A DNA stretch of 64,000 nt from an uncultured bacterium (GTDB lineage Bacteria; Verrucomicrobiota; Kiritimatiellia; CAIKKV01; CAIYGI01): assembly GCA_903925685.1 (NCBI GenBank), contig CAIYGI010000112.1, forward strand, positions 1,784 through 65,783. Direction: 5' to 3'. Below the pieces are notes generated by a model. The model worked only from the letters and a program-made list of their open reading frames with translations, had not been told where the DNA came from and did not search any database. This document shows, one piece after another, positions 1 to 61,330 of this stretch. Made by a program: the position numbers and the translations under genes. Each line of letters starts with the position of its first letter. Position 1 is the stretch's first letter.

Positions 1-281
1 TTACATAGCGCGGACGAATCCGTCCGCCGCAGTGCCGGCAGCGCGCGCGCAAGGCCAGCCAGCTTACGATCGGCAGATTGTCGTGCCAGGCGATCGGGGC
101 CTGGCAGCGGGGACAGTGCGAACGCGGACGGACGATCGAGCGGTTGCGTGGAATCCGGTACACGCAAACGTTCAGAAAACTGCCGATGCAGGCGCCGAAC
201 GCAAAAACGATCGCGTCGAGGTAAATGCGCAGCGCCGTCGGCAATACGTCTGGAGTGGGCATGATTAATCTTCTTTCAGTT

Positions 282-953
282 TCAGACCCAGCCGGAGGCG
301 GGGGTGGCGTGCGGTGCGGGCAGGACAAGCACGGGATGGAAGATGTCGCGGCGGCCGGTGAAACGCAGCCGCGCCACGCCCGTTTCAAGAAATTCGAAAC
401 GCGCCAGAGGAAAAGGAGGCAAACCCAGCAAATGCGCCAGCAGCACGGCCAGCGAACCGCCATGGGCGAAGACCGCCACGCCCAGCTCGCGCGCGCCGGG
501 ATCGAGCATGAAGCCGCCCATGCGGGCATGTATTCCCAGCGCGGCCAGATCGTCCAGGAACGGCGGAATGACCCGTCCGTAAAATTCAAAACAGCCCTCG
601 CCCAGCTCCGTTTTCCAGGTCCTCTCGGCGTAGCGCTCGCGATCGCGGGCCATCAATTCCGCGACCTGCTCCGCGCTACCCGTCCGCATCGCCAGCGTAG
701 GTTCCCACTCCTGCAGATATTCGCGCGCCTGGATCGGCACCCCGCGGCCCGCCAGCGCCAGCTCGGCGGTTTGCAGCGCCCGCCCAAAAGGCGAACTGAA
801 AGCCACGTCCACACGCACGTCTCGCAGCGCCTCCGCCAAGGCGCGCGCCTGGGGCAGACCCGCATCCTCCGAGAGAAAGCCCTGCACGGGCTGCGCCGGA
901 CGCAGATAAGCATCTCCGGCCTTGCGGCCATGGCGGATCAAGAGCAATTCCAT
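282..953 (-). CDS. histidine phosphatase family protein (phosphoglycerate-mutase-like)
   Basis: Minus-strand ORF. The true start is probably the internal ATG giving [13 protein letters not shown], the RHG catalytic motif of the histidine phosphatase superfamily. It lies 20 nt downstream of the stop of the AceK-like gene, so an operon is likely. Confidence 0.6.
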
Positions 954-972
954 CGCGTTCTCCAGCGTGAAC

Positions 973-2934
973 TCAACGCACCACCATCTGCCCGCGAATC
1001 CGCTCCACCAGCGCCGCGGCATCGGCATGATCGAGACGCTCCAATACCTTTTCCCAGCGGTACGAAAAACTCCCCTGTTCATCCCGCCGACGGTGCTTGA
1101 AAAGCGAATCGAAGGCCCGCCGGCGCTTGCGATATTCCGCCTGCGTTTTTTCCAGGCGCGCCCGCAAGGCCCCCAGATAGGCCTCGGCAAACGCCTTGGG
1201 ATCGGGCGTAAAGGCCGCGCGCCGGTTCATCGGCTGGGCATAGGCCGCCGCGGATTGCTCCAACGGCGCGCGGAAGTTGATGAAGGTCCCGGTCTGGTCG
1301 GCCACCACGATCGCCGCCGGCAGGTCGTTGCGATCGAGCACCACAATTTCGTCGCCGCGGTCGAAGAGCACGTTCTCGTCGGCATCCATCCGGCCCACAA
1401 TCAGATTCGAGGCCGCGGCCTCGCCCAGCAGCGCCGCCAGCGGCAACGCGAAGCGGGCGTCGCGAAAACGCGTCAGGGGAATCTTGTCGCTCGCAATGCC
1501 TTCAATGTAGTCGCGCTCGAAATAGGTCATCCAGAGCATCCGCCCCAGGCAATCCTGTCTCAAGCCATGGTAGCGTTCGGTGATCCGCTGCGTGATCAGG
1601 CGGGAAGGCAGGCTCATGCCGAGCTGACGGCAGCCCAGGCGCCGGTCGAGCACGTAGTCGGTGTATTCCTCCGTCTCCAGGATCGCCGCCAGCAGGTCCT
1701 TGTTCTCCTCCAGGTGCTCCTGGATGCCCCACTTTTGCATGCGCGCAATGCGCACGGTCGGTTTCTCGACGCCGCGCCGCTTGACTTCCGCCAGGTAGTT
1801 GTTGCGGCGCCCGGGCGCGTCGAGGCGCTGGGTAATCATGTTGGACACGCGTCCGATGTTGACGTGCTCGATGTCGCCAAATTCGCGTATGTAATTGAAT
1901 ATAAAGCCCTTGGTGCGCGTATCGCAGAGCGCCTGCAGTTCGCGGTCGCCGGGATTGCGATCCAGTTCGTCGAACACGGGATCGAACATCAGTTCGCCGT
2001 CCTCGATGCGGCCGCCGGGCAGCCACTCGATTTGCATGTAAAATTCGCGGCTCAGGCCATGCAGCAGCTCCTCGTCCACCGTCTCGTCGCCGCAGGTAAG
2101 CAAAATCGTCGCCATGCGGTTGCGCCACGCCAGGTTGTCCACCCCGTCCTCGCGCAACTCCGCGGGCACAGCCCGGTTAAACTTGTCCCTCAACTCCCGA
2201 TAGGCCGCCCGCAGCGCCGCTTCGTCGAGCGCCACCAGGTCCAACCCCGCCAGATCCGCGGCGCCAAAAGCCGGCGCGCCAAGGAAAAAATCCACTTCCG
2301 GGTGACCGATCCGGTTGCGCCGGGCCGCATACTCCTGAATCTCGCGTATCTGCGCCCGCAACCTTCCGTCCGGCAGCATATCGAGCGCCGAAAACTCGCC
2401 GCAGGTGAGCCAGCGCGTGCCCGCCAGTTTGTTGTAGTAGTAAACCGTCGCGCCGCCGATGCTGATCCGCGCGGCGTTGATCATGGCGTTCAGTTCAGCC
2501 GGCGACCGCGGCATGGCGCTCATGCGCCAGCACTCGCCCCGCGCCCGCAGCGCCTGGCGAACCACCTCGTTGCGCACATGCAGAAAACGTATGCGGGCCT
2601 TGGATACGATCTCCTGCAGCAGTTCGTCCGCCTGAAAAGCCAGCGCCATGGCGTCCGGATCGGGACGGATCAGGATCGTTCGAGCCTCCATGATCAAATC
2701 CACGGCATCGCGATGAATCTCCGCCTGTTCTTCCTCCGTGAGCGGCGGCTGACCAGCCTGCGCCCGTTCGGCATTGAGACTTTCGATATACCACATGCGC
2801 TGGAAAGCGTGGATGCCCGGCAGGGTAACCAGGGCCGGGCCGCGCAGAAAAAGGGTGGCAATGCGCGACTTGAGCAGCCCCTGCTCGTCCCGTTCCAAAG
2901 GTTGACTCCCGATGATCCGTAAAGTCATGGGCAT
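973..2934 (-). CDS. large conserved protein, isocitrate dehydrogenase kinase/phosphatase (AceK)-like
   Basis: 653-aa ORF. The C-terminal region (EAAASNLIVGRMDADENVLFDRGDEIVVLDRND) aligns from memory with the AceK kinase core ([29 protein letters not shown]). The assignment is tentative. The long antisense ORF 922..2922(+) is rejected. Confidence 0.45.
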   Translation of the reverse strand: MPMTLRIIGSQPLERDEQGLLKSRIATLFLRGPALVTLPGIHAFQRMWYIESLNAERAQAGQPPLTEEEQAEIHRDAVDLIMEARTILIRPDPDAMALAFQADELLQEIVSKARIRFLHVRNEVVRQALRARGECWRMSAMPRSPAELNAMINAARISIGGATVYYYNKLAGTRWLTCGEFSALDMLPDGRLRAQIREIQEYAARRNRIGHPEVDFFLGAPAFGAADLAGLDLVALDEAALRAAYRELRDKFNRAVPAELREDGVDNLAWRNRMATILLTCGDETVDEELLHGLSREFYMQIEWLPGGRIEDGELMFDPVFDELDRNPGDRELQALCDTRTKGFIFNYIREFGDIEHVNIGRVSNMITQRLDAPGRRNNYLAEVKRRGVEKPTVRIARMQKWGIQEHLEENKDLLAAILETEEYTDYVLDRRLGCRQLGMSLPSRLITQRITERYHGLRQDCLGRMLWMTYFERDYIEGIASDKIPLTRFRDARFALPLAALLGEAAASNLIVGRMDADENVLFDRGDEIVVLDRNDLPAAIVVADQTGTFINFRAPLEQSAAAYAQPMNRRAAFTPDPKAFAEAYLGALRARLEKTQAEYRKRRRAFDSLFKHRRRDEQGSFSYRWEKVLERLDHADAAALVERIRGQMVVR

Positions 2935-2967: not shown

Positions 2968-3612
2968 CTATTGCCTCGCGCCCAGCCGGGCTTCCGTCCC
3001 GGCCCACAGGCGGCGCAGGTTTGCGCGGTGGCGTATTACGATCAGGACGCCGATCGCCGACAACGCCACCGTCAGCGCTCCCGGACGCCAGCCCGTCCGC
3101 CACCATTGAAAGAGCGGCACGGCAAGCGCCGCCGTCACGGATCCAAGCGATACGATCCTGCTCAAGGCGAACACCACGGCCCACACCAGCGCCCCAACCG
3201 CAACCGCCGCCGGGGCCAGCCCCAGCAACGCGCCGACACTAGTCGCCACGCCCTTGCCGCCTTTGAAGCGCAGCCAGACCGGCCAATTGTGCCCCGCCAC
3301 CGCCAGTACCGTGAAAAGCACCGCCAACGCATCCGGATCCCACCCCGCGGGCGCACAGCACAGGCGCGGGAAGAACATGACTGGAACGAAGCCCTTGAGC
3401 GCGTCGAGCGCAAAGGTCAGCACGCCCCAGCCCTTGCCCACCGCGCGGAACACGTTGGTGGCGCCGACGTTGCCGCTGCCGACCGTACGGATGTCCACGC
3501 CCTTGATGCGCGCGATCAGGTAGGCGTTTGGAATGGAGCCCAGCAGATAGGCCGCCGCGGCCAGCAGAAACACCGGCAGGAATATGGGCGAGCAAACCGC
3601 CTGACAGGCCAT
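2968..3612 (-). CDS. plsY: glycerol-3-phosphate acyltransferase PlsY
   Basis: 214 aa with AYLLGSIP, GSGNVGATNV and HNWPVWLRFKGGKGVATS motifs. The full length is collinear with E. coli PlsY. Confidence 0.9.
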   Translation of the reverse strand: MACQAVCSPIFLPVFLLAAAAYLLGSIPNAYLIARIKGVDIRTVGSGNVGATNVFRAVGKGWGVLTFALDALKGFVPVMFFPRLCCAPAGWDPDALAVLFTVLAVAGHNWPVWLRFKGGKGVATSVGALLGLAPAAVAVGALVWAVVFALSRIVSLGSVTAALAVPLFQWWRTGWRPGALTVALSAIGVLIVIRHRANLRRLWAGTEARLGARQ

Positions 3613-3619
3613 CTTAGCC

Positions 3620-5455
3620 TCATTTCGCGTGGCGGAGATGCCATAGCATCTGAATGATCATGGCGGCCTGGTTGGCCGTCCAGTAGAGCACCAGGGCCGA
3701 AGGCATGCTGTAGAAAAAGACCAGCATGATCACCGGCATAAAAACCATCATGCGCTGCTGGGCGGGATCGCCGGTCGAGGGCGTGATCTTGGTCTGCCAG
3801 ACCGAAAGCGCCGTCATGATCAGCGGCAAAAAGTTAACGCCGCTCACGATCGGCAGCAGGCCCGGAAACAGATTTTCCGCCTCGCTCAGGTCGTGTATCC
3901 AGAGGAAGTGCGCATGTCGCAATTCCACGGCGCTGCGCAGCACGTTGTAGAGCGCGATAAAAACCGGGATTTGGATCAGGATCGGCAGGCAACCGCTCAT
4001 CGGGTTGACCTTGTTCTTTTTGTAAAGCTCCATCGTCGCCTGTTGAATCTTCTGCGGCTTGTCCCGGAACTTCTCCTTCAGCGCCTTGATCTCGGGCTGT
4101 AGCGCCTGCATGCGTTTCATGCTCTCGGTGCCCTTGTGCGTCAGCGGCCAGAAGATGCCGCGCACGAGCAGCGTCACCAGGATGATCGCCAGGCCGTAAC
4201 TCGGTATCAACGCCACCAGATGATTGAGCAGCCAGAGCAGCGCGATGCAGACCGGCTTGAACCAGCCGAACTCCATGATATCGTCCATGTGAACGCCCAT
4301 GTTCCGCATCGCGGAATAGTCCTTGGGCCCGACGTAGTACTGGCATTGACGTTGCGCCGTCTCGCCCGGCTTGAGCGTCAGCGCGGCGAAGCGCAGGGCC
4401 GCCGAAACGTCGCGCAGCAGCGCCACCTTCGCCCACGAGGCGGGATTTCCGGGCTGCTCGCCCGGCGCGGTCGTGCGCGTCGCGCGCAGGTCCACGCCAA
4501 CGCAGGGCTCGGGTGGCTTGACGATTTGCACGAAGAATTTGTTCTTAACGGCCACCCAGTCGAGATCCTGGTTGATGCGCTCGTTAATGGACAGCGGCAT
4601 CTGGCGCGTGGGAGCAGGTTTGCCCATCGAGCAACCGCCACCGCGCAACGCGGGTTCCTGAAAGAAATCTCCGAGCGCCGGAGTTCCGCCGAAAGTTCCG
4701 CCCGATCCCCAATGACGCGTCTTCTCCCCGCCCACGGAATTCAGGGAATCGATGCCCAGATGCGTAAAACCGCTGATTTCGGTCTCGCCCGCAATGCGTC
4801 CCATCGTCCCCACGCGCAAGCCTGTGGCCGGCAGCGTCACCGCCGTCGCGCCGCGATTTTCGAAGCTGTCGGTCACCTGCACCTGATAGCCCTGTTCCGG
4901 CACGACTATTTCGCGAACCAGTCGCACGCCGCCGGAGACCGCTTCCAGCGTCGCCTTGCGGCCGCCGGGCGCCACGACAATGCTGAAGGCGCTCTGCGCG
5001 TCAAAGCCAGGCAGTTTGTCGTAACTCATGGCCGGCCAGGCGCGGAAATTGAAACTCACCGGCGCGCTGTCACGCTGGTTGGCGGTCGGATAGCGGTCCA
5101 GTTCGGCCGAGCAGATGCCGCCGCCGTGCGAAGTCAACTCCACCCGCAACATTCCATTGGTCAGAACAACATGTGTTTCTTCCGGAAGCACGGACACGGC
5201 ATCCGCCACTGCGGCGTTCGTCGGGGCCGACAGCACAGGCGCTTCCGCCCGGGCCTCCAGCGTCGTCCCGGTCGCGGCGGCGGACGGCACATCCACGCCC
5301 GGCGGGACTGCGGCCGGGGCATTAGTCGCGGCAATCGCGGGACCAGGGACGATCGCCGGCGCCGGGAAAAACTTTTGGGAAATCGGCCCCCAAGCCAGCA
5401 GGGCGGCAAAAAGCAGGACCACGACGGAAATATCGAAAATTGACCAGCGTTTCAT
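3620..5455 (-). CDS. yidC: membrane protein insertase YidC
   Basis: 611 aa. The N-terminal TM segment, large periplasmic domain and C-terminal conserved core (KPVCIALLWLLNHL...LVRGIFWPLTHKG...LYWTANQAAMIIQ) are typical of YidC/Oxa1. Confidence 0.92.
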   Translation of the reverse strand: MKRWSIFDISVVVLLFAALLAWGPISQKFFPAPAIVPGPAIAATNAPAAVPPGVDVPSAAATGTTLEARAEAPVLSAPTNAAVADAVSVLPEETHVVLTNGMLRVELTSHGGGICSAELDRYPTANQRDSAPVSFNFRAWPAMSYDKLPGFDAQSAFSIVVAPGGRKATLEAVSGGVRLVREIVVPEQGYQVQVTDSFENRGATAVTLPATGLRVGTMGRIAGETEISGFTHLGIDSLNSVGGEKTRHWGSGGTFGGTPALGDFFQEPALRGGGCSMGKPAPTRQMPLSINERINQDLDWVAVKNKFFVQIVKPPEPCVGVDLRATRTTAPGEQPGNPASWAKVALLRDVSAALRFAALTLKPGETAQRQCQYYVGPKDYSAMRNMGVHMDDIMEFGWFKPVCIALLWLLNHLVALIPSYGLAIILVTLLVRGIFWPLTHKGTESMKRMQALQPEIKALKEKFRDKPQKIQQATMELYKKNKVNPMSGCLPILIQIPVFIALYNVLRSAVELRHAHFLWIHDLSEAENLFPGLLPIVSGVNFLPLIMTALSVWQTKITPSTGDPAQQRMMVFMPVIMLVFFYSMPSALVLYWTANQAAMIIQMLWHLRHAK

Positions 5456-5514
5456 GACATCGATTCCTTATGTTGCTGGAACTCGGGTTGCTTGTCCTTC
5501 AGTGCTATCAGCCT

Positions 5515-5757
5515 TCAGCCTATCGACCTGGCTTTACTTGCGCGCGGCGGAACGGGGTCCCAGCCGCCGGCATGAAACGGGTGACAGCGGACAATCCGCT
5601 TCAACCCCAGCCATACGCCCCGCGGCGCGCCGTGTGCGCGTATGGCCTCCATCGTATAATGCGAGCATGACGGTTCGAAGCGGCAGCAAGGCCCCAGCAA
5701 CGGCGCCAGCGAAAGCTGGTAGAGACGGATTAGCACCCGCAACAGTCCGGCAATCAC
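5515..5757 (-). CDS. yidD: membrane protein insertion efficiency factor YidD
   Basis: 80 aa (LIRLYQLSLAPLLGPCCRFEPSCSHYTMEAIRAHG), matching the YidD family. It overlaps the rnpA stop by 4 nt. Confidence 0.85.
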   Translation of the reverse strand: MIAGLLRVLIRLYQLSLAPLLGPCCRFEPSCSHYTMEAIRAHGAPRGVWLGLKRIVRCHPFHAGGWDPVPPRASKARSIG

Positions 5758-6158
5758 CGCTCGCCGCCTTCCCGCGCCACCAGCCCCGCGCGCCGCCCCA
5801 GGCGCCGCATTTCATCCACCACCTCGGGCCATGGCGCAAACAACAAATCACGCCGCGCCACGAGGATCAAATCGGCCGCGCCGCGAAAGTGTTCGCGGTT
5901 CAGGCGCCAGGCGGCGCGCAGCCGCCGCTTGGCGCGGGCGCGGGCCACGGCTCCGCCGACTTTACGGCTGGCCACCACGCCGAGGCGCAAGGCGGCGCCC
6001 GGGCCACTGCGGGGATAAAGCACCATCAAACGTCCGCGCGTCGCGCGGCCCTGCGCATAGGCATCTTGAAAAAGCGCGCCGGAGCTGATCCGCTGCGCGC
6101 GGCTCAAGCCCAAATCCGGCGTCCGTTCGCGTTTTGCCTTCTCCGCGCCGTCCGCCAC
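5754..6158 (-). CDS. rnpA: ribonuclease P protein component
   Basis: A basic protein immediately downstream of rpmH, in the conserved rpmH-rnpA-yidD-yidC order. The start may lie internal to the ORF. Confidence 0.75.
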   Translation of the reverse strand: MADGAEKAKRERTPDLGLSRAQRISSGALFQDAYAQGRATRGRLMVLYPRSGPGAALRLGVVASRKVGGAVARARAKRRLRAAWRLNREHFRGAADLILVARRDLLFAPWPEVVDEMRRLGRRAGLVAREGGER

Positions 6159-6181
6159 GGATCCAGTTGGGCTTGCGCCCT

Positions 6182-6316
6182 TTACACCGTCAGGCGTTCG
6201 CGTCCCTTCCGGCGTCGCGCGGACAGAACCCTGCGCCCGTTGTGCGTCGCCATACGCGCCATAAATCCATGTTTGCGCGCCCGTTTCTTGCGCGACGGCT
6301 GATACATCATCTTCAT
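6182..6316 (-). CDS. rpmH: 50S ribosomal protein L34
   Basis: Hand translation of the minus strand gives [44 protein letters not shown] (44 aa). This classic L34 is absent from the ORF track because it is under 60 aa. Confidence 0.9.
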
Positions 6317-6490
6317 AGTGCTTCGCTCTCCTAAAGGCGTTGAATCATACCATCGCCAACCCGCCTGTCAAGGATCAAAACAGGATCAAAACACCATGCA
6401 GTTCTTCAGAAAACCAGAAAACCATCGGGCCTGAGACCGTGTACTTGGACTGGTAGTCCGGAACTGACGCAGAGCGGCGAACCGGAGCGA

Positions 6491-8610: not shown

Positions 8611-10932
8611 TCACGACTCCGCAATCAGTTTACCAAACTTTGACGGGACGGCAAAACTCGAAATCCCGGTCGGCGAAAAAGCCGAATGTTCCATGACCTT
8701 GCCTCTGACCCTCTGGCGGCACACGTTGAAATACCAGGGCGCCGCGGCATCCGGCTTCTTTCCCGCAACCCGTTTCCGGCGGTCGAGTCCACCCTCGGGC
8801 GTCTCGCGCGTGGTGGGAATCCGGATTTCCAGGCTCCAGAAATCGGCGCCGCGATAAACGGCGCATTGGGCCTCCGACGCCCACGGCGGATGCCCTCTAT
8901 CCCTGTCAAGATCGATCAGGGCGCCGGCCGCGTTGATCGTAATCTGATAATACGCATGCGACGGAGTCTCCAGGAACAATTCGGCCTCGTCGTCGCTGTA
9001 GATATTTGCGTCGCCATTCTTCGTCGTCGTGACGCTCAGATTGTTCATGTCCGCGTCCGCGCACCGGATCCCAAACACGAGGCTGCCGTCGCTCCACGCG
9101 ACCTGGAATGTGGTCTTGGAGACGGGCGATTTCCCGGTCGCCAGCTCTTTCAACTCATAGACCGACGCGCCTTTCCAGAAAGGCTTGTCCAGGTTGCCGT
9201 CCAGTTTCAGCCCTGCGCCCTTGCGCTCGACGGCCAACGCCTGGGGGGCGCTTTTCCGGATCGCGCTCCATTCTTCCCTGCGTTCTTTGAATTGCGAGAG
9301 ACCATTGACAGCCAGAGCGACGCGCTTGCCGTAGATCGTATCCCCGGCGGCTTTACGAGCTGTGGCCAGCAGTTCCAGGCCTTTATCCAACGATTCTGCG
9401 TTTTTGCCCATGAGCGGATCGGCCGCCTTGGAATAATCCATGAACGCCTTCATCGCATGGGCGGCAGGACCATAGAAGCGGTAGGTGTCCGCCAGGTCTT
9501 CGTAGCGGAAGAGCATGATCAGATCCTGCACGCGGATGGGCGCGGACGCCCCAGCGGCGAGGGTGATCTCGACACGATTCGCTCCCTGCTTGATCGACTC
9601 GCACGGAACCTCAATCTCCAGTTGTCCTTCGCTCCAGACTCCCGTGTTCAAACGCCGGCCATTGAGCGCTACGCTGACGGCGCCGCCGTCCGACACGTTC
9701 CCGGCCTGAACTTGCAGCAAAACCTGCGGGCGAATCACCCCGGCGTTCAGGCCCTTCACGTCTTCTCCAAGATCCAATGGGATTTGCAGTGTTTGGCCGG
9801 GTTTGATTTCTTCCGGTTTGCCGGGGGCGAGGGTTGGTAACTGCTGGAGCCGCTCGCCATCCTTCAGTCCAAAGTGCGGTATTAATCGGTAGCCCAAGGG
9901 GTTGGCATAGTAGACCTTGTCGAGATCCGCCAGGGTCTTGGGATCGCCGAGTTCTCTCCAGAGCGAAAGATACGGTTCGTAACAATTGAACAGGTAAATA
10001 CCATCCACCCCGGCCTGCCAGGCGTTCGCCGCGCGGGCACGGTTGGCCTCGATGCTGTTGCGATTTTTGGCTTCATATCGGTTACACATCTCTGCCCAGG
10101 AATTGTTCAAACACGCATATACGGGCACATCGTGCTGGTGTCCGAGTTGCACCATGTGCGTCCAAGGCTCCAGGAGAAAATCGCCTCCGGCCACCAGCAG
10201 GTCAACCAGATCCTGGTTTAACCAGGCCGAGACATCCAGGCCGATCGCCTGGTCATACGCGAGGGACTCGGATACGCGAACCGCGATGAGGATGGGACGG
10301 GAGCGGCGCGCCCCGATCGTTTCGGTCATCGCGCGAATCCGCCGGAGCAGATCGGTCATCGCATCCAGGTGTTCCTGCCCCAGGGGTTGCCCAAAGGCGT
10401 GCGGCTTGAAAAAGGTCGGGTGCCGAAAAAAATCCAACTCGATGCCGTCGATATCATAGCACTGGCAAACCTGACGGATTTCCTCGAAGGCCCGCTGCCG
10501 GATGGCGGGGTGTCCGTAATCCGCCCCGGACCAACAGCCATACGGAGGATTGTTGTCTTGCGTGTTCAGTAAATATTCCGGATGGTCGCGTTTAAACTGC
10601 GACAAGGGGTGATAGTCACTTTCATCGTGAATGTCATTCATCCTGAACGAACAGAAGATCTCCATCTTTTCCTGGCGGCAGAAATCCGTCATCACGTTCA
10701 TGGGCTCGATCCCATATTCCAGGATATGTGGCGCGCGATCCGTGAACAGACTCACCCGGTTGTAGAAGATGGAATCCACCTGCGATCCGGCCAGCGCTGA
10801 AGTGCGCACATCGAGCAAAGCCTGACGCGACGCTGTAGCTTTGCAGTATTCCTGGTATCCCGCGTCGCAGGCGTCGTTGTTGAAAATGATGCGTCGCTGT
10901 CTCCTGGCTGCCTGCTTGCGCTGTTCTTTCAT
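8611..10932 (-). CDS. putative glycoside-hydrolase-like TIM-barrel protein with C-terminal CBM9-like carbohydrate-binding domain
   Basis: 773 aa. The N-terminus (RIIFNNDACD...RMNDIHDE...DGIELDFFRH) resembles GH-like families. The C-terminus (KLDGNLDKPFWKGASVYEL...TFQVAWSDGSLVFGIRCADADM...WSLEIRIP) resembles CBM9-like domains. Confidence 0.6.
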   Translation of the reverse strand: MKEQRKQAARRQRRIIFNNDACDAGYQEYCKATASRQALLDVRTSALAGSQVDSIFYNRVSLFTDRAPHILEYGIEPMNVMTDFCRQEKMEIFCSFRMNDIHDESDYHPLSQFKRDHPEYLLNTQDNNPPYGCWSGADYGHPAIRQRAFEEIRQVCQCYDIDGIELDFFRHPTFFKPHAFGQPLGQEHLDAMTDLLRRIRAMTETIGARRSRPILIAVRVSESLAYDQAIGLDVSAWLNQDLVDLLVAGGDFLLEPWTHMVQLGHQHDVPVYACLNNSWAEMCNRYEAKNRNSIEANRARAANAWQAGVDGIYLFNCYEPYLSLWRELGDPKTLADLDKVYYANPLGYRLIPHFGLKDGERLQQLPTLAPGKPEEIKPGQTLQIPLDLGEDVKGLNAGVIRPQVLLQVQAGNVSDGGAVSVALNGRRLNTGVWSEGQLEIEVPCESIKQGANRVEITLAAGASAPIRVQDLIMLFRYEDLADTYRFYGPAAHAMKAFMDYSKAADPLMGKNAESLDKGLELLATARKAAGDTIYGKRVALAVNGLSQFKERREEWSAIRKSAPQALAVERKGAGLKLDGNLDKPFWKGASVYELKELATGKSPVSKTTFQVAWSDGSLVFGIRCADADMNNLSVTTTKNGDANIYSDDEAELFLETPSHAYYQITINAAGALIDLDRDRGHPPWASEAQCAVYRGADFWSLEIRIPTTRETPEGGLDRRKRVAGKKPDAAAPWYFNVCRQRVRGKVMEHSAFSPTGISSFAVPSKFGKLIAES

Positions 10933-14421: not shown

Positions 14422-15777
14422 TTACCGGATAATGAACATCGTGCCTCTGGTCACGTATTCGTAGCAGCCCATATCCACGATGCCGGAGACGGGGTCCTTG
14501 CGCCGCTGGCCGTCCAAATCCGTCGCGCCATTCATCCAGTCCTGGTTCGTTCCGGTGTTGATGCAGGGCGACGGGGCTTGCAAATGGAAATCCTGCTTCG
14601 CAAAATTCACGAAGTTCGGCGAATTGGTCACGATGATGCCGCCAAAAACACAGTTGGCTATAGCTATATTGTTCGTGAGCAAGCAGGAGTTGGTACAAGA
14701 ACTGCTGGTGGTGGTCCCGTAGTTTACTATGTCGCTGACAGCGCCATTAACCAAATTGGAACGCATGATCGTATTCCAGATATTGAAGAAGGTTGCTGCT
14801 TGGGCACGCACATGGATGCCGGCGCCAAGTACCGCAGAGTTGCTGACGATGGTGCAATTATAAAGTCCTGCACTAGAAGCGCTATTGGCTAAGACGATCC
14901 CTCCACCCCTCTCTCCACTATAGTTATTATAAATCAGGCAATTCCGTACCTGCGCAAGGCTTGTACCCTGCTCAAAGGAAATGCCGCCGCCACCATTCCC
15001 GAAGGCGGTAGAGAGGGCACGATTGCCGCTGACAATACAGTTTTGGATAATGTTCGTCATGCCTCGTCCGCAGTGAATACCACCGCCAGGTCCTGCGGCC
15101 GAATTACCACTTATAAGACAGTTACTGATTATCAAAAGTGAGGCGCCCCCGGAGCCGTACGAGTTAAAATATATTCCCCCTCCCGACCCCGATGGCGCAC
15201 TATTACTGCTGAACGTACAGCCCTTTATGGTGTATTTCACGCCAGGGGAGGCTAAAAACGGATAACACAGCCCGCCCCCGTAAGCTCCTGCCGAAGCGTT
15301 ACCACTGACCACGCAGTTACTCAAATTCCCGGAGAAGTTTGCAATGGGCGAGATATAAATGCCGCCGCCGCTGGTGGATGACCAGCAATTGGAAACGGTA
15401 ATACCACCTATGTTGTATGGGTAAGTCACGAGCACGGGATAAATCGCAATGCCCCGATTGGTGTTGGAGCCGTCAATGCTCACGCTGGCCGGATTGCCGT
15501 TGGAACTGACCAGCGTGATCGGTTTGCTGATAGTCACCACGTTGGTGAGGGTGGCGTTGGTGGTATAATGCCCGGCGCCGATCAGCACCGTGTCGCCAGC
15601 GCTGGCCTGGTCGACCGCTTCCTGGATGTTGCTGGCCGCGCTGTCCCAGGTGGTGAAGGCCCCGCTGGGCGTCTGGCCGTTCTGCGCCACGTAATGCGTG
15701 TCGATCGCGGCCCGCACAGAGTTCGCCGCGCCACAGACCATCAGAACCACGAGAACTGACTGCACGATCGTCTTCAT
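14422..15777 (-). CDS. secreted right-handed parallel beta-helix repeat protein (pectate-lyase-fold)
   Basis: The start is at the internal Met (MKTIVQSVLVVLMVCGAANSVRA signal peptide). It has many Gly/Ser/Asn-rich PbH1-like repeats (GGGIYI.., NCxxSGNSA..). Confidence 0.7.
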   Translation of the reverse strand: MKTIVQSVLVVLMVCGAANSVRAAIDTHYVAQNGQTPSGAFTTWDSAASNIQEAVDQASAGDTVLIGAGHYTTNATLTNVVTISKPITLVSSNGNPASVSIDGSNTNRGIAIYPVLVTYPYNIGGITVSNCWSSTSGGGIYISPIANFSGNLSNCVVSGNASAGAYGGGLCYPFLASPGVKYTIKGCTFSSNSAPSGSGGGIYFNSYGSGGASLLIISNCLISGNSAAGPGGGIHCGRGMTNIIQNCIVSGNRALSTAFGNGGGGISFEQGTSLAQVRNCLIYNNYSGERGGGIVLANSASSAGLYNCTIVSNSAVLGAGIHVRAQAATFFNIWNTIMRSNLVNGAVSDIVNYGTTTSSSCTNSCLLTNNIAIANCVFGGIIVTNSPNFVNFAKQDFHLQAPSPCINTGTNQDWMNGATDLDGQRRKDPVSGIVDMGCYEYVTRGTMFIIR

Positions 15778-15894
15778 ATCATCTCCTTTGCCTAATTGTG
15801 AGCCTTTTGCACAACTGCATGGCTCTTTTCCGTTTCCGATCCCTTGCCTCATCGAATACCGAATACAGCCAAGGCCAAGCCATTCGCTCTAAGA

Positions 15895-23875: not shown

Positions 23876-24943
23876 TTACAGGCTTTCGGCCACGAGATCG
23901 CCGACCTGGGTGGTGCTGTAGCCCATGCGGCCCGCGGCGATGCTCTTCAGCTTGTGCGCGGTCAGTTCCATCACGGACTTCTCGATCGCCGCCGCGGCCG
24001 CCTTCTCTCCGAGCTGATCCAGCATCATCATGCCGGCGCAAATCGCCGCCAGCGGATTGATCACGTTCTGTCCGGTGTACTTGGGCGCCGAGCCGCCGAT
24101 CGGCTCGAACATGCTGACTCCGCCGGGGGCCGGGTTCAGGTTGCCGCCCGCCGCGATGCCCATGCCGCCCTGCGTCATGGCAGCCAGGTCGGTGATGATG
24201 TCGCCAAAGAGGTTGCCGGTGACGATCACGTCGAACCACTCGGGATTCTTGATCATCCACATGCAGGTCGCGTCCACATGATAGTACTCGCGCTTGATGT
24301 CCGGGAAGTCGCGCGCGCCCATTTCGTGGAAGGCGCGATCCCACAGGTCGTACACAAAGGTCAGCACGTTGGTCTTGCCGCAGAGCGCCAGCGTGCGCTT
24401 CTTGCCGCGCGCCCGCGCCAGCTCGAAGGCGAAGCGCAGAGCGCGGTCCACCTGGAAGCGGCTGTAGACCGCCGCCTGCACGGCCACTTCGTGCGGCGTG
24501 TCCTTCATTGTGAAACCGCCGGCGCCGGTATACATGTCGCCGGTGTTCTCGCGCACGACGACGTAATCGATGTCGGCCGGGCCCTTGTTCTTGAGCGGAC
24601 ACTCGACGCCCGGATACAGCTTCACGGGCCGCAGGTTGATGTACTGGTCGAGATCGAAGCGCAACTTGAGCAGAATGCCCTTCTCGAGAATGCCCGGCTT
24701 CACGTCCGGGTGCCCGATCGCGCCGAGGTAAATCGCGTTGAACTTGCGCAAATCTTCCACCGCCGTCGCCGGCAGAACCTCGCCGGTGCGCAGATAGCGC
24801 GCGCCGCCGAAATCGAAATCCGTCAGATCCAGCTTGAAGCCGAACTTGGCCGCCGCCGCCTTCAGCACCTTGACGCCTTCACGGACCACTTCCGGTCCCG
24901 TGCCATCCCCGCCAATCACCGCGATTTTATAACTCTTGCTCAT
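23876..24943 (-). CDS. 3-isopropylmalate dehydrogenase family (LeuB/tartrate DH-like) protein
   Basis: 355 aa of the isocitrate/isopropylmalate dehydrogenase superfamily (KIAVIGGDGTGPEV, GSAPKYTGQNVINPLAAI). Confidence 0.8.
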   Translation of the reverse strand: MSKSYKIAVIGGDGTGPEVVREGVKVLKAAAAKFGFKLDLTDFDFGGARYLRTGEVLPATAVEDLRKFNAIYLGAIGHPDVKPGILEKGILLKLRFDLDQYINLRPVKLYPGVECPLKNKGPADIDYVVVRENTGDMYTGAGGFTMKDTPHEVAVQAAVYSRFQVDRALRFAFELARARGKKRTLALCGKTNVLTFVYDLWDRAFHEMGARDFPDIKREYYHVDATCMWMIKNPEWFDVIVTGNLFGDIITDLAAMTQGGMGIAAGGNLNPAPGGVSMFEPIGGSAPKYTGQNVINPLAAICAGMMMLDQLGEKAAAAAIEKSVMELTAHKLKSIAAGRMGYSTTQVGDLVAESL

Positions 24944-27563: not shown

Positions 27564-30500
27564 TCATGGATGTTCTCCGTTCTCCTGCACAATCCCGATT
27601 TCCTCATCTGTCAGGCCGTAAAGCGCGTAGACCAGACGGTCAACCTCGCGGTTCGCCGCGTGAATCTGGCGGTCAAGCGCTTCCTTGTCGGGCGGGGACT
27701 TCGCGACGGCAACCTGCTTACGCAAACTCATGATCTGGTCCACCAGGTTGTGGAGGATGGCAGATGCGCCTCCTGTCGGGATGGCGATGGGCATTTGTTC
27801 GATGTATTGCTTGTTAAGCGCGATGTACCCGCCGCGAAATGGTGTACTGATCGACCGAAGGAAACGGCTCAACAAACTCGAATTGAGTATCCCGAGTAGG
27901 CAGTAGTAGTCGATGGTTGCATCTTCGCGAAGCGTAATCCCGTAGCCGCCTCCTCCACCCCCGCCACTTCCGACAAAAAAGTAGCGTCCTTCAAGGTCCG
28001 GCGCAAAGCAACTGCCCGTCGCAATGGAAGGAACAAGCAACTTGGGAAGAGGCATTTTGGTGTGGTTCTTTTTGTAAACATATCCGTACCATTGCAGCCC
28101 CAGCTTGCCTTTGTTTCGCCCAGACAACCGCGCCTTGCATTCAGTTAGATAAGCCCAAGTCAGAGGAAATCGTTGAGCGTAAGCATCTGAAGGAATCAGC
28201 GCGGACTTTCCTGATCGAGTCTCATAAGGAAAGACAAGTAGTTTGGAAACATCAGACAAGAAGTAACGCCGAATATTGAGCGAACCCTTTAGAAATGGCT
28301 TCAAATGAGCGCTCTCGAACCAATGCTCTCGGCCAGTGTGCTTTGACGAGCAAAGGACTCTGCCTTTGTCACGTTTCGCTTCCTCAAGAATGAAGACATC
28401 GTCGGCATCTGTCTGAAGCCCGACAAATAGGTCGGCGATATCGCCAAGTTTTACCGGCCACTTATTGAGGGCGTTAAAGACCTTCGCCGTCGCTCCGACC
28501 GCGAAATTCCATTCTTTCGAGGTGATAACCCGGGCTGGGATGCGTCCCTCGGCTCCTGTCGTCGTGGTCTTTCTGCCTTTGGCGCGATACAATGCCGCCG
28601 CTTCATGGACAAGCATGGGAAACACATCTGTTCTCTTTCGACCTGCGGGTTCCAATTGTTCCATGCGCCATGCGTCAAGGTCATCAACCTTTACATAATG
28701 GCACTCATCTATGCCCGCTTTATGGAGGAATAGCAGGCACGTATAAGTCGTAGCCCCTGCGAACACCTGTTGATCTCCGAAATGAACGACGTGGGCAAGG
28801 TGTCTGCCGCCGGCAATGATCCCGCGCAAGGCTTCGCCGTACTGCGCATTGAAAAACTTGTGCGGCAAAATGAAGCCCAGCCGCCCGGATTTGTTCAAGA
28901 GACTCAGCGCCTTCTCGACGAAGACAACGTAAATGTCATAGTTCCCGGCCGCTGCCGACCGGTAGAGCGACTTGTAAAGCTCGACCTCGGCTGGCGCCCA
29001 TTCCTTCATCATCTGAATGCGGATGTACGGCGGATTGCCGATGATTGCATCGAAGCCTGGTAGAACGCGCTCGCCGAGCGGCGGTTTCGGCGAAACCGCC
29101 CTACCAAACACTTCTGGAAACGCTTGCGGCCCGTCGAAAACATTGATGCGGTAGCGGTCTTCCTCCGGGAGCAAGGAAAGTTGCTGGTGCCTGTAGGCAT
29201 CCGATCCGATAAGGGAGTTTCCGCATTTGATGTTGCTGCCGAGGTCCGGCAAGGCGCGTTGGTGGAACAGTTCAAACTGCTTCGTGATACTCTCTTGGGA
29301 TTCGCCTTCCAGCACTTTCAAGAGCAGCGAAAGTTTCGTCACCTCGACGGCTTGCGCGTCGATGTCCACGCCGAAAATGTTGTTGAGAAGGATTCGCTTT
29401 CTCTCGTCGGTGGTCAGGCGGAAGCAAGGTTTCAGGTGTCGGGTGTCAGGTGTCAGACCAATACCGGCGATTTCGTATAGACAAGGGTTCCGTCCTTTCA
29501 TCCAGGATCCTGGATCATGTTCGGTGTAGTACTGCAAATGCCAGTCCAGCAGTAACTGATAGGCGCCCAGCAGGAACGAGCCCGAACCGCAGGCCGGGTC
29601 GAGAATCTTCAACTTGGCCGCCTGCTTCGGCGTCCCTACTTCCAGTAATTTGCCGACCGTGTTCTTGACGATGTAATCCACGATATAGGTCGGGGTGTAA
29701 TAGACGCCACCCGCCTTGCGGACTTCCGGCTTTTCCTCAACCTTGGCCTGATGCCCGGCGGTCAGCCGGATTACCTTGCCTAGGAAGCGCTCGTAAACCT
29801 GGCCGAGAATGTCGGCGGACAAAACGGAAAACTCGTAGGGGCTTTCCGGGTAGTAGAGATTGGCGAGAATATCGTGCAAAACCTTGTCGTCAAGGTTCAA
29901 CTTCAGGGTCAACTCGTCCGGCGCTTCGGGCCGGTCCTTTTCGCGCTGAAAATGGAACAAACCAGAGTTGTAACGATCATCAGCCTGTTGGAAGAACTCG
30001 CAGAGCCGGGGGTAGACCCGCTCGCCGTTGCGAAGCGTCATCAGCCGCCCGTAAGGTTCAATGCCACGATCTTCACAGATACGCAGGAAGATGATCCTGT
30101 CAATGGTGCACTGAACGGAGAAGTTCAGTTCCCGTTGCGACAAGTCAGGATTCCGCAAAGCGATGGTCCGGGCGAGAAGGTCACGCCAGCGTTCAATTTC
30201 CTCAAGAAATGCCTCGTCCACACTGGTAGTTCCGTGCTTGCCTTTGGCGCCTTCGGCGAACTTGTCGAACGAGCCTTTCAGCACGGCTTCGCGGGAGAAG
30301 ATCGCGGCAATCTCGTCCCACTTCTCGGCGTACTGCCCGGAAGTCAGATACATGACGCGACCGACCGCCGCCGAATCGTTCTTGCAGGGTTTGACGCGGC
30401 AGTCATAGACGGCGAACTCACCGAAGTCAGTCAAGATGCTCAAAGGGAGTTTCGCCGACCAGCCATAACGCCGGAGTTGGTAAGCCGGGTGCGGGGAGTC

Positions 30501-30797
30501 TTTGATGTTCACGGACGGCTTCTTGCATTCGACAAAAAACTTACGCGCGCCGCCGATTCGGAAGCAAGAATCCGGGGCCTCCGTCGCGCCCCCGATCTTC
30601 AAGGCTTGCTCGTGAATCACGTCCTTGTAAGCTTCGGCGTAACCTTGCTCGTTGTGTACGTCCCAGCCCAGCGCTTTGAAAAACGGATCAATGAACTCGA
30701 CCCGGATTTCCGTCTCCTTGTACTGGCCGGACTCGTACGCTTCGCGTTGTGCGTCGTAGCGTTCAAGCAGCCGTTCGATCTCTTGCGGAACAGCCAT
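27564..30797 (-). CDS. Type IIG / PglX-like bifunctional restriction-modification enzyme (N-terminal nuclease-like region + gamma-class N6-adenine DNA methyltransferase + C-terminal specificity region)
   Basis: 1077 aa from MAVPQEIERLL, with GAGG at -12 and a TATAAT about 36 nt upstream. MTase motif I is DPACGSGSFLLGAY and motif IV is IIGNPPYIRIQ. The N-terminus (EIRVEFIDPFFKALGWDV) is typical of Type IIG/IIL and BREX PglX enzymes. The gene is visibly more AT-rich than its flanks. Confidence 0.8.
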   Translation of the reverse strand: MAVPQEIERLLERYDAQREAYESGQYKETEIRVEFIDPFFKALGWDVHNEQGYAEAYKDVIHEQALKIGGATEAPDSCFRIGGARKFFVECKKPSVNIKDSPHPAYQLRRYGWSAKLPLSILTDFGEFAVYDCRVKPCKNDSAAVGRVMYLTSGQYAEKWDEIAAIFSREAVLKGSFDKFAEGAKGKHGTTSVDEAFLEEIERWRDLLARTIALRNPDLSQRELNFSVQCTIDRIIFLRICEDRGIEPYGRLMTLRNGERVYPRLCEFFQQADDRYNSGLFHFQREKDRPEAPDELTLKLNLDDKVLHDILANLYYPESPYEFSVLSADILGQVYERFLGKVIRLTAGHQAKVEEKPEVRKAGGVYYTPTYIVDYIVKNTVGKLLEVGTPKQAAKLKILDPACGSGSFLLGAYQLLLDWHLQYYTEHDPGSWMKGRNPCLYEIAGIGLTPDTRHLKPCFRLTTDERKRILLNNIFGVDIDAQAVEVTKLSLLLKVLEGESQESITKQFELFHQRALPDLGSNIKCGNSLIGSDAYRHQQLSLLPEEDRYRINVFDGPQAFPEVFGRAVSPKPPLGERVLPGFDAIIGNPPYIRIQMMKEWAPAEVELYKSLYRSAAAGNYDIYVVFVEKALSLLNKSGRLGFILPHKFFNAQYGEALRGIIAGGRHLAHVVHFGDQQVFAGATTYTCLLFLHKAGIDECHYVKVDDLDAWRMEQLEPAGRKRTDVFPMLVHEAAALYRAKGRKTTTTGAEGRIPARVITSKEWNFAVGATAKVFNALNKWPVKLGDIADLFVGLQTDADDVFILEEAKRDKGRVLCSSKHTGREHWFESAHLKPFLKGSLNIRRYFLSDVSKLLVFPYETRSGKSALIPSDAYAQRFPLTWAYLTECKARLSGRNKGKLGLQWYGYVYKKNHTKMPLPKLLVPSIATGSCFAPDLEGRYFFVGSGGGGGGGYGITLREDATIDYYCLLGILNSSLLSRFLRSISTPFRGGYIALNKQYIEQMPIAIPTGGASAILHNLVDQIMSLRKQVAVAKSPPDKEALDRQIHAANREVDRLVYALYGLTDEEIGIVQENGEHP

Positions 30798-30835
30798 TTC
30801 TACCTCGTGAATCTGAAGGGGCATTATAACGCATA

Positions 30836-38157: not shown

Positions 38158-38417
38158 TTCATCAACTTCCTGACCGTCACATAGGTTTGCCGGTCCCCGT
38201 GCTTCTCAAGCAACTTGGCGCAACGGATCAAGTCATCGTCGGTCCGCGGAACGAAGTCCTGCCGCAGAAACCATCCGCAAAACAAACGGTTCCTCGCCCA
38301 CAATTTGCTGACTTGTTCACGCATGACCGGTGTGAGTTCCATGTCATAACCTCTTTCAAAGCCGATTCTACCTAATCGCCATTCGCTTGTCAGCATCGGA
38401 TCATTGTCACCATGCAT
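38148..38417 (-). CDS. small protein upstream of AbiEii-like toxin, putative cognate antitoxin
   Basis: An 89-aa ORF overlapping the toxin start by 10 nt. Its first seven codons (MHGDNDP) are encoded by the reverse complement of the duplicated response-regulator 3' end, so the real start may be the internal Met (MLTSEWRL...). No confident family call. Confidence 0.35.
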   Translation of the reverse strand: MHGDNDPMLTSEWRLGRIGFERGYDMELTPVMREQVSKLWARNRLFCGWFLRQDFVPRTDDDLIRCAKLLEKHGDRQTYVTVRKLMKCL

Positions 38418-38437
38418 GGCGTAGACTATATTTACCG
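38397..38437. repeat. right copy of the 41-bp imperfect direct repeat (a remnant second copy of the response-regulator 3' end)
   Basis: cggatcattgtcaccatgcatggcgtagactatatttaccg. In the response-regulator frame it reads RIIVTMHGVDYIYRKGSKR-stop, and the stop overlaps the ATG of the A2M gene. Confidence 0.8.
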
Positions 38438-38452
38438 AAAGGGGTCAAAGCG

Positions 38453-59397: not shown

Positions 59398-59539
59398 GCC
59401 CCACCCCCGTTTTCGTTGCCGGTTAAATATTACTCCTATGCCGGCCCCGTCTCAAGCAGGCACCACCCTTCTTGCTCTTCCCATCCCGGCCTTTGGAGGG
59501 TAGACTGTCGCCTCCGGTTTTAGAAAGGACTATGGCGAA

Positions 59540-61324: not shown

Positions 61325-61330
61325 ACGGTC

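What the first reader, a model, noticed from the sequence alone, without database searches (positions are those of the whole stretch)
282..2934. AceK-like (isocitrate dehydrogenase kinase/phosphatase family) protein co-transcribed with a histidine-phosphatase gene
The C-terminal 200 aa of the 653-aa protein align, by recollection of E. coli AceK, with the kinase catalytic core (EAAASNLIVGRMDADENVLF / DRGDEIVVLDRND against [16 protein letters not shown] / RVVFYDYDE). AceK homologs are essentially confined to Gram-negative proteobacteria with aceBAK operons. Here the gene is followed 20 nt later by a phosphoglycerate-mutase-type histidine phosphatase (RHG motif), not by glyoxylate-shunt genes. 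That arrangement suggests a split kinase and phosphatase regulatory pair for an unknown target.
Basis: inference. Interest (0 to 1): 0.5.

Follow-up and report, generated by a model that had tools for sequence, protein, structure and literature searches.

The report
Undescribed kinase-fold protein, distantly AceK-like
The 653-residue protein belongs to a conserved, unannotated family with a kinase-type fold that faintly resembles the E. coli regulator AceK, but it is not an AceK, and the phosphatase gene next to it is a neighbour only in this lineage.

Summary

The large protein matches nothing in Pfam, NCBIfam, PADLOC, PHROGs or PDB sequences, including the AceK models. It still has more than 1,200 homologues of about 650 aa, mostly from Planctomycetota and Verrucomicrobiota/Kiritimatiellia MAGs.

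Twenty-two controls, four of them other E. coli kinase-fold proteins, gave nothing. In that alignment AceK's catalytic Asp457 is an invariant Arg, Asn462 is deleted, and the Asp477-Glu478 pair is kept.

The phosphatase sits next to this gene only in a 95%-identical relative, out of 80 loci. No aceA, aceB or icd lies nearby.

Verdict: a new kinase-fold family remotely related to AceK. The paired kinase and phosphatase idea is not supported.

The parts
973..2934 (-). Gene X: 653-aa protein (651 aa if translation starts at ATG 2928). Member of an unannotated two-domain family.
   Evidence: ORF. 1,286 homologues, all labelled 'hypothetical' and without Pfam domains. 613 clusters at 50% identity. 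No Pfam, NCBIfam, PADLOC, PHROGs or PDB-sequence hit.
2035..2934 (-). N-terminal domain, residues 1-300. Mixed alpha/beta with no known fold relative. His42 and Gly172 are invariant. Arg90, Gly133, Trp136, Arg137, Glu198, Asn207 and Glu213 are conserved in at least 90% of sequences.
976..2034 (-). C-terminal protein-kinase-like (PKL) domain, residues about 301-653.
1333..1698 (-). Residues 413-534: the stretch that aligns with AceK 364-483, from the helix-C-like segment to the metal-binding loop.
   Evidence: hhalign probability 45-50%, P 1.6-2.3e-4. Controls P 0.11-0.79.
1348..1395 (-). Core motif G514-R515-x-[D/N]517 ... F524-D525-D/R526-G527-D528-E529. Arg515 stands where AceK has the catalytic Asp457. 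D528-E529 align with AceK Asp477-Glu478.
   Evidence: Column counts over 39 diverse members: R515 38/39, G527 38/39, E529 39/39, D528 35/39, D525 33/39. Alignment. Roles of the AceK residues from PMC3747045 and PMC6591243.
1282..1299 (-). D546-x-T-G-x-F551 after the beta hairpin 529-544. This is the alternative candidate for the DFG-type metal-binding Asp. D528 to D546 is 18 residues, the same spacing as PKA's Asp166 to Asp184.
   Evidence: Secondary structure of the model. Conservation: D546 is Asp in 31 of 39 sequences and Glu in 5; F551 is conserved in 37/39. The residue mapping is inference.
951..972 (-). 22-nt spacer between the stop codon of X and the phosphatase ATG. It contains GGAG.
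   Evidence: Sequence. No terminator-like site.
282..950 (-). Histidine phosphatase, branch 1 (phosphoglycerate-mutase-like), 222 aa. RHG motif at 924..932.
   Evidence: Pfam PF00300, E 2.3e-24. NCBIfam gives only sub-threshold hits to CobC, PspA and GpmB models. A homologue lies next to X only in L001.
2968..6371 (-). Upstream same-strand genes: plsY (2968..3612), yidC (3620..5455), yidD (5515..5757), rnpA (5754..6158), rpmH (6182..6316), and a promoter-like site at 6371..6344.
   Evidence: Pfam. rpmH ORF. Promoter scan: TTGACA-16-TATGAT, 11/12 matches, with TG.
1..262 (-). Start of a prepilin peptidase (A24) gene downstream of the phosphatase. It runs off the window.
   Evidence: Pfam PF06750, E 3.7e-29.

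Best explanation
Gene X encodes a cytoplasmic two-domain protein from a conserved family that has not been described.

Shown:
- Residues about 301-653 adopt a protein-kinase-like fold.
- Within that fold the sequence resembles the AceK kinase domain, faintly but specifically.
- Residues 1-300 form a confidently modelled alpha/beta domain with no relative among solved structures.
- The two domains always occur together.

Inferred:
- The C-terminal domain binds ATP or ADP with Mg/Mn. The likely ligands are a beta-3 basic residue (Arg398/Lys401) and the acidic loop F-D-D-G-D-E (525-529).
- It adds a phosphoryl group to, or removes one from, a substrate that gene context does not reveal.
- The hairpin 529-544 and the N-terminal domain probably recognise the substrate or sense an effector, as the regulatory domain does in AceK.
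- The usual catalytic loop (AceK Asp457...Asn462) seems to be replaced by Gly514-Arg515, so the chemistry is unlikely to be that of a textbook kinase.

The histidine phosphatase downstream is an ordinary, independent gene. It happens to follow X at the end of the rpmH-rnpA-yidD-yidC-plsY gene string in this lineage only.
For: - AceK link: hhalign P 1.6-2.3e-4 with three different query/target profiles, always the same register. All 22 controls were negative. Family-invariant residues coincide in order: E-R of YFER/YIER, AAxN, the Gly before the catalytic position, and F.D.DE. A low-confidence extension also lines up the C-terminal W-x5-R-[LI] helix.
- Active-site-like conservation: E529 39/39, R515 38/39, G527 38/39, D528 35/39, D525 33/39, R398 36/39.
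- Fixed architecture: full-length hits down to 25% identity keep both domains.
- The phosphatase is incidental: 1 of 80 loci. Six Pfam-annotated neighbourhoods are all different, and none of 11 candidate neighbour proteins was shared beyond closely related loci.
- No aceA, aceB or icd lies within 6 kb of X in the 80 loci. The only Iso_dh-family gene in the window is leuB.
Against: - No HMMER-level match to any kinase family, so the fold call rests on a predicted structure.
- Two residue mappings remain open, because model coordinates could not be superposed. In the AceK register the catalytic Asp and Asn are missing. In the canonical-spacing register D528, D534 and D546 would serve as the HRD-Asp, Asn-like and DFG-Asp residues.
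- The putative beta-3 Lys385 is conserved in only 25/39 members. D528 and D546 are both lost in a divergent subgroup (P0196, P0202, P0210). Some members, or the whole family, might therefore not be catalytic.
- Nothing identifies the substrate.
Confidence: 0.6

Rival explanations
1. Pseudokinase, or a kinase scaffold doing other chemistry. The kinase-like domain has lost phosphotransfer. It acts either as a nucleotide-binding scaffold or sensor, or it catalyses another reaction known from this fold, such as AMPylation or glutamylation.
For: - In the AceK register the catalytic Asp is an invariant Arg and the Asn-containing loop is deleted.
- Lys385 is poorly conserved.
- Many conserved arginines (R362, R398, R431, R474, R515, R626, R633) suggest an anionic ligand.
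- Proteins with this fold are known to carry out AMPylation and glutamylation (abstract of PMC10870513).
Against: - The acidic loop D525/D526/D528/E529 and D546 are strongly conserved. That is more typical of a metal-dependent enzyme than of a dead scaffold.
- Under the alternative register a catalytic Asp (D528) is present.
Confidence: 0.22
2. Lipid or small-molecule kinase. The domain phosphorylates a lipid head group, sugar or other metabolite, as PI3K/PI4K or aminoglycoside and macrolide phosphotransferases do.
For: - The best structural neighbours include PI3K, PI4K type II and III, Vps34, MavQ, APH, Mph and homoserine kinase type II.
- The segment between the DFG-like motif and the next helix is short (547-557), as in small-molecule kinases.
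Against: - None of these families is detectable by sequence.
- SrkA, WaaP, WaaY and UbiB profiles give no signal, whereas AceK, a protein kinase, does.
- No lipid or sugar pathway genes recur near the gene.
Confidence: 0.12
3. One reading: X (kinase) and the downstream histidine phosphatase form a dedicated, co-transcribed regulatory pair acting on one target.
For: The genes share a strand and are 22 nt apart, with an RBS-like GGAG and no terminator-like site between them. The pair is also kept in the 95%-identical relative L001.
Against: - It is absent from the other 79 loci, even in a six-frame phmmer search at E<=0.01.
- The two genes sit in a long string of functionally unrelated housekeeping genes (rpmH, rnpA, yidD, yidC, plsY ... 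prepilin peptidase), so co-transcription implies little here.
- The phosphatase is a generic branch-1 member below every NCBIfam cut-off.
Confidence: 0.04
4. A true AceK orthologue: an isocitrate dehydrogenase kinase/phosphatase controlling the glyoxylate shunt.
For: Only the local motif similarity and a comparable two-domain size.
Against: - No PF06315 or PF20423 hit.
- The N-terminal domain is alpha/beta with no AceK match, whereas AceK's regulatory domain is mainly helical.
- Asp457 and Asn462 are not conserved.
- No aceA, aceB or icd nearby.
Confidence: 0.02

Closest known systems
AceK, isocitrate dehydrogenase kinase/phosphatase (Pfam PF06315 kinase domain plus PF20423 regulatory domain; PDB 3LCB)
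   Same: - Two-domain layout: an N-terminal domain of about 300 aa followed by a C-terminal kinase-fold domain.
- It is the only tested family with a sequence signal, from helix C to the metal loop (P about 2e-4).
- Shared motifs: YxER, AAxN, the Gly before the catalytic position, and F-x-D-x-D-E.
- AceK's Asp477-Glu478, needed for its phosphatase activity, are kept as D528-E529.
   Different: - No HMMER-level match.
- Asp457 is replaced by Arg515, and the Lys461-Asn462 loop is deleted.
- The N-terminal domain has a different fold, mixed alpha/beta rather than mainly helical.
- Found in Planctomycetota, Verrucomicrobiota/Kiritimatiellia and Lentisphaerae MAGs, plus one Woesearchaeota MAG, not in Proteobacteria.
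- Never next to aceBA or icd.
Atypical protein-kinase-like folds: actin-fragmin kinase (1CJA), PI3K/PI4K/PIKK catalytic domains, Bud32/RIO
   Different: Sequence identity is 5-14%, and no Pfam match was found. The canonical D-x-x-x-x-N catalytic loop of these families is not recognisable in X.
Histidine phosphatase superfamily, branch 1 (PF00300), for the downstream gene only
   Same: Full-length Pfam match, with the RHG and HGG motifs.
   Different: It falls below the cut-off of every specific NCBIfam model (CobC, GpmB, PspA, SixA), so its substrate is unknown. It is not linked to X outside this lineage.

Membership tests
AceK (isocitrate dehydrogenase kinase/phosphatase) | Match to the AceK kinase-domain model PF06315 | tested here: not met
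   No hit for X at E<=1, for 30 close members, or for 39 diverse members at E<=5. E. coli AceK itself carries PF06315 and PF20423.
AceK (isocitrate dehydrogenase kinase/phosphatase) | AceK regulatory domain (PF20423; mainly alpha-helical, binds AMP) | tested here: not met
   [not shown]
AceK (isocitrate dehydrogenase kinase/phosphatase) | Catalytic triad Asp457, Asn462, Asp475 | tested here: not met
   In the hhalign register Asp457 aligns with Arg515 (38/39 Arg). Asn462 falls in a 7-residue deletion. Asp475 aligns with position 526, which is Asp in 29/39 members and Arg in this protein, next to Asp525. Residue roles from PMC3747045.
AceK (isocitrate dehydrogenase kinase/phosphatase) | Asp477 and Glu478 (second metal site, phosphatase activity) | tested here: met
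   D528 (35/39) and E529 (39/39) align with them. Roles from PMC6591243.
AceK (isocitrate dehydrogenase kinase/phosphatase) | Detectable profile-profile homology to the kinase domain | tested here: inconclusive
   Probability 45-50%, P 1.6-2.3e-4 over 108-112 columns. The signal is specific against 22 controls but falls below the usual confidence level.
AceK (isocitrate dehydrogenase kinase/phosphatase) | Genomic association with aceB, aceA or icd | tested here: not met
   No tblastn hit in the 80 loci. The window has only leuB, 22 kb away. Whole genomes could not be checked.
Protein-kinase-like (PKL) superfamily | Bilobal kinase fold | tested here: met
   [not shown]
Protein-kinase-like (PKL) superfamily | Beta-3 Lys and helix-C Glu pair | tested here: inconclusive
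   K385 is conserved in only 25/39 members, R398 in 36/39 and K401 in 32/39. E422 is Glu in 17 of 39 members and Asp in 5. Assignment needs a superposition.
Protein-kinase-like (PKL) superfamily | Catalytic-loop Asp and Asn, and a DFG-type Asp | tested here: inconclusive
   Two registers are possible. In one, Arg515 replaces the Asp and D525-x-G527 serves as the DFG motif. In the other, D528, D534 and D546 have canonical +6/+18 spacing.
Histidine phosphatase superfamily branch 1 (downstream gene) | PF00300 match with the RHG nucleophile motif and a second His | tested here: met
   E 2.3e-24, profile positions 1-185 of 194. R7-H8-G9 and AHGG are in the sequence.
   1 of 80 loci.

The most novel reading that the evidence does not exclude
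This family is a sister group of AceK's kinase domain in which the kinase catalytic loop has been excised and replaced by Gly-Arg, while AceK's phosphatase-type acidic centre (D-x-D-E) is kept. It would then be an ATP/ADP-dependent protein phosphatase, or an enzyme with some other chemistry, built on a kinase scaffold. It would be steered by a sensor domain of a fold not seen before and would act on a conserved target in Planctomycetota/Verrucomicrobiota-type bacteria.
Probability: 0.15. Interest if true: 0.7.

Novelty: new variant of a known kind. Interest (0 to 1): 0.45.

Why it matters
AceK was the first known bacterial protein kinase/phosphatase, and it is usually treated as a proteobacterial oddity with no relatives. 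A remote relative in another bacterial superphylum would give the first outgroup for asking how a kinase scaffold acquired phosphatase activity. That relative keeps the metal-binding Asp-x-Asp-Glu but lacks the catalytic Asp.

Apart from the AceK question, the family is large: more than 600 clusters at 50% identity, typically 50-58% identical between phyla among its closer members. It is missing from Pfam and NCBIfam, and its 300-residue N-terminal domain has no solved structural relative. That makes it a reasonable target for structure determination and biochemistry.

The practical lesson for annotation is negative. The neighbouring phosphatase should not be used to infer the function of this protein.

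Tried and rejected
- BLASTP of X against E. coli AceK found nothing meaningful.
- phmmer and hmmsearch of X, and of two family profiles, against all PDB sequences gave only chance hits with E>0.2.
- The PADLOC and PHROGs searches were empty for X.
- A homologue search with E. coli AceK was meant to build a diverse AceK profile. It returned only near-identical E. coli sequences. I replaced it with plasmid and metagenome loci, which gave 15 AceK sequences at 48-100% identity. Proteobacterial AceKs more distant than that were not sampled.
- My first greedy ORF caller mis-called genes in this high-GC DNA and even lost the phosphatase in L001. I replaced it with six-frame ORFs plus phmmer or tblastn and with database gene calls.
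- Apparent recurrences near X turned out to be non-homologous or lineage-limited. These were PFK, radical SAM and XylR-type regulators.
- An ATP-grasp ligase lies divergently upstream in 15/80 loci, but those loci form one clade with X identity of at least 61%. I read this as inherited synteny, not a functional link.
- A search from the most divergent member (P0196, from a Woesearchaeota MAG) for bridging sequences found only one other protein.
- No tRNA or Rfam element lies in the window.
Full report
**Observation**

The minus strand carries an ORF at 973..2934 (653 aa). After a 22-nt spacer, a second ORF runs from ATG 950 to 282 (222 aa). The small protein is a full-length match to Pfam His_Phos_1 (E 2.3e-24) and has the RHG motif at residues 7-9 and a later AHGG. 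It stays below the cut-off of every specific NCBIfam model.

**Genomic setting**

The two genes close a same-strand string: rpmH (6182..6316), rnpA, yidD, yidC, plsY, X, the phosphatase, and a prepilin peptidase that runs off the window. A strong promoter-like site (TTGACA-16-TATGAT) lies at 6371..6344. No terminator-like site falls in any intergenic gap. Co-transcription is therefore plausible. In a string of unrelated housekeeping genes, though, it says little about function.

**What the large protein is not**

- hmmscan against Pfam gives no AceK hit (PF06315, PF20423) and no other credible hit. This holds for X, for 30 close relatives and for 39 diverse relatives, even at E<=5.
- NCBIfam, PADLOC and PHROGs are empty.
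- phmmer and two family profiles find nothing in PDB sequences.
- BLASTP against E. coli AceK shows nothing.

**The family**

One search finds 1,286 homologues, all about 650 aa, all labelled 'hypothetical', and none with a Pfam domain. The best 120 are 51-58% identical to X, apart from P0001 (identical) and P0002 (95%). An exhaustive HMMER search of 1.84 billion cluster representatives finds 613 clusters at E<=1e-3 and 272 at E<=1e-30. Full-length members keep the same architecture down to about 25% identity.

In one-genome-per-species GTDB data, 263 species carry a close relative. They are MAGs of Kiritimatiellia, Verrucomicrobiota, Lentisphaerae and Planctomycetota (Thermoguttaceae, Pirellulales, Phycisphaerales, Tepidisphaerales). 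One divergent member sits on a 323-kb contig of a Candidatus Woesearchaeota MAG.

**Structure**

AlphaFold2 with a 30-sequence alignment gives a confident model, pLDDT 87.7 and pTM 0.73.

- The N-terminal domain carries invariant or near-invariant polar residues (His42, Arg90, Arg137, Glu198, Asn207, Glu213). That pattern suggests a ligand or catalytic site.

**Is it AceK-like?**

The signal:

- With 39 diverse members the same register came back at probability 46%, P 2e-4, aligning X 417-534 with AceK 368-483.
- With a 15-sequence AceK profile the result was 45%.
- With an 83-sequence family alignment it was 50.5%, P 1.6e-4, over 112 columns.

The controls:

- The same query profile gave scores of 11-21 (P 0.11-0.79), against 41 for AceK.
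- The control targets were four other E. coli kinase-fold proteins (WaaP, WaaY, UbiB, SrkA), 12 unrelated E. coli proteins, one reversed AceK and five shuffled AceKs.

Family-invariant residues coincide in order:

| X | AceK |
|---|---|
| YFER474 | YIER417 |
| A507-A508-x-N510 | A450-A451-N452 |
| G514 | G456 |
| F524 | F473 |
| D528-E529 | D477-E478 |

A low-confidence extension also lines up the C-terminal helix, X W627...R633-L634 with AceK W545...R551-I552. I conclude that the resemblance is real but remote. AceK is the nearest family by sequence among those tested, while other atypical kinases are nearer by predicted structure.

**Active site**

AceK uses Lys336 to hold ATP and Asp457 as the base. 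D457A abolishes its phosphatase activity, and mutations in the Asp457-Asn462-Asp475 triad abolish its kinase activity. Lys461 also contributes, Asn462 and Asp475 bind Mg, and Asp477 and Glu478 serve the second metal site and phosphatase activity (PMC3747045, PMC6591243).

Two residue registers are possible.

- AceK register (from hhalign). Asp457 corresponds to Arg515, which is Arg in 38 of 39 members. The Lys461-Asn462 stretch falls in a 7-residue deletion. Asp475 corresponds to position 526, which is Asp in 29/39 members and Arg in this protein, with Asp525 (33/39) beside it. Asp477-Glu478 correspond to D528 (35/39) and E529 (39/39). The model's isolated beta bridge between residues 516 and 522 fits a shortened beta-7/beta-8 hairpin directly after helix E.
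- Canonical-spacing register. This cannot be excluded without coordinates. D528 would be the catalytic Asp, D534 (+6) the Asn-like ligand, and D546 (+18, in D-x-T-G-x-F) the DFG Asp, with strands 529-533 and 539-544 as beta-7 and beta-8.

The expected beta-3 lysine, K385, is conserved in only 25/39 members. R398-M-Q-K401 (36/39 and 32/39) matches AceK's K336-V-I-K339 in spacing and is the better candidate. That assignment is inference. A divergent subgroup (P0196, P0202, P0210) has lost both D528 and D546, and P0199 has lost D528 only. All four keep R515, D525, G527 and E529.

**Is the phosphatase a partner?**

- tblastn (E<=1e-5) and a six-frame phmmer search (E<=0.01) of the 80 loci, each with up to 6 kb of flank on either side, find a histidine-phosphatase homologue only in L001. 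L001's X is 95% identical to the window's, and its plsY and yidC genes are also syntenic.
- Database gene calls with Pfam around six diverse members are all different: IF-1/3D/PFK/AlaRS; topoisomerase VI/aminoacyl-tRNA synthetase/MarC; Hsp70/XylR; SOD/HIT; RND efflux/XylR; HTH/radical SAM.
- Apparent recurrences do not hold up.
- The most persistent neighbour is a divergently transcribed ATP-grasp ligase, present in 15/80 loci, with a Mur-ligase-like gene behind it in 9. It is confined to one clade whose X proteins are at least 61% identical.
- No aceA, aceB or icd homologue lies near X in any locus. The only Iso_dh gene in the window (23876..24943) is leuB.

**Interpretation**

X is best described as a member of an undescribed kinase-fold family that is remotely related to the AceK kinase domain and fused to a domain of unknown fold.

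- Shown: fold class, family size and conservation, specificity of the AceK signal, absence of AceK family membership, and absence of a conserved phosphatase partner.
- Inferred: that the domain binds nucleotide and metal through R398/K401 and the D525-E529 loop; that it carries out phosphoryl transfer or hydrolysis on an unknown substrate; and that the hairpin 529-544 and the N-terminal domain provide recognition or regulation.

The rivals cannot be excluded, namely a pseudokinase or other chemistry, or a lipid or small-molecule kinase. The true-AceK reading and the split-pair reading are essentially refuted.

**Novelty and score**

Full-text searches found no paper reporting AceK-like families outside Proteobacteria or describing this family. 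New kinase-fold families are being reported regularly from structure prediction, so this is a new variant of a known kind rather than something categorically new. Interest is moderate, 0.45. The points in its favour are the possible link to AceK's origin, the unusual catalytic loop and the N-terminal domain with no known fold. The point against is that nothing yet indicates its function.

Noticed in passing
window 5515..6371 (- strand): Classic rpmH-rnpA-yidD-yidC cluster with a near-consensus sigma-70-type promoter-like site (TTGACA-16-TATGAT, TG extension) at 6371..6344. The cluster runs on without terminator-like sites into plsY, gene X, the phosphatase and a prepilin peptidase.
   Followed up: partly
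window 27564..31073 (- strand): A 1,169-aa single-chain restriction-modification enzyme (Eco57I/MmeI-type methylase, HSDR_N and TaqI_C domains). It lies in a low-GC patch (0.537, against about 0.65 in the flanks), so it is probably horizontally acquired.
   Followed up: partly
window 38387..44365 (+ strand): A 1,992-aa bacterial alpha-2-macroglobulin with MG2, bait region, A2M, TED and bMG10 domains.
   Followed up: partly
window 8611..10932, 14422..15852, 59423..61513 (all - strand): Three large ORFs (773, 476 and 696 aa) with no Pfam match at E<=1e-5. GC drops to 0.53-0.57 between about 14 and 20 kb.
   Followed up: no
L008, L011, L012, L014, L015, L018, L020, L021, L023, L029, L031, L044, L054, L055, L076 (directly upstream of the X homologue): An ATP-grasp ligase (RimK/GSH-synthetase-like) is transcribed divergently 78-527 nt upstream of the X homologue in 15 loci. 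In 9 of them a Mur-ligase-like gene lies behind it, an arrangement resembling a split cyanophycin synthetase. It is confined to one clade.
   Followed up: partly
L170 8001..9920 (protein P0196): A divergent full-length family member (about 29% identity to X) lies on a 323-kb contig of a Candidatus Woesearchaeota (DPANN archaeon) MAG. It has lost D528 and D546 but keeps R515, D525, G527 and E529.
   Followed up: partly
[not shown]
   Followed up: partly
window 23876..24943 (- strand): The only isocitrate/isopropylmalate dehydrogenase-family gene in the window is leuB (NCBIfam NF002898, 495 bits against a cut-off of 393), not icd.
   Followed up: yes
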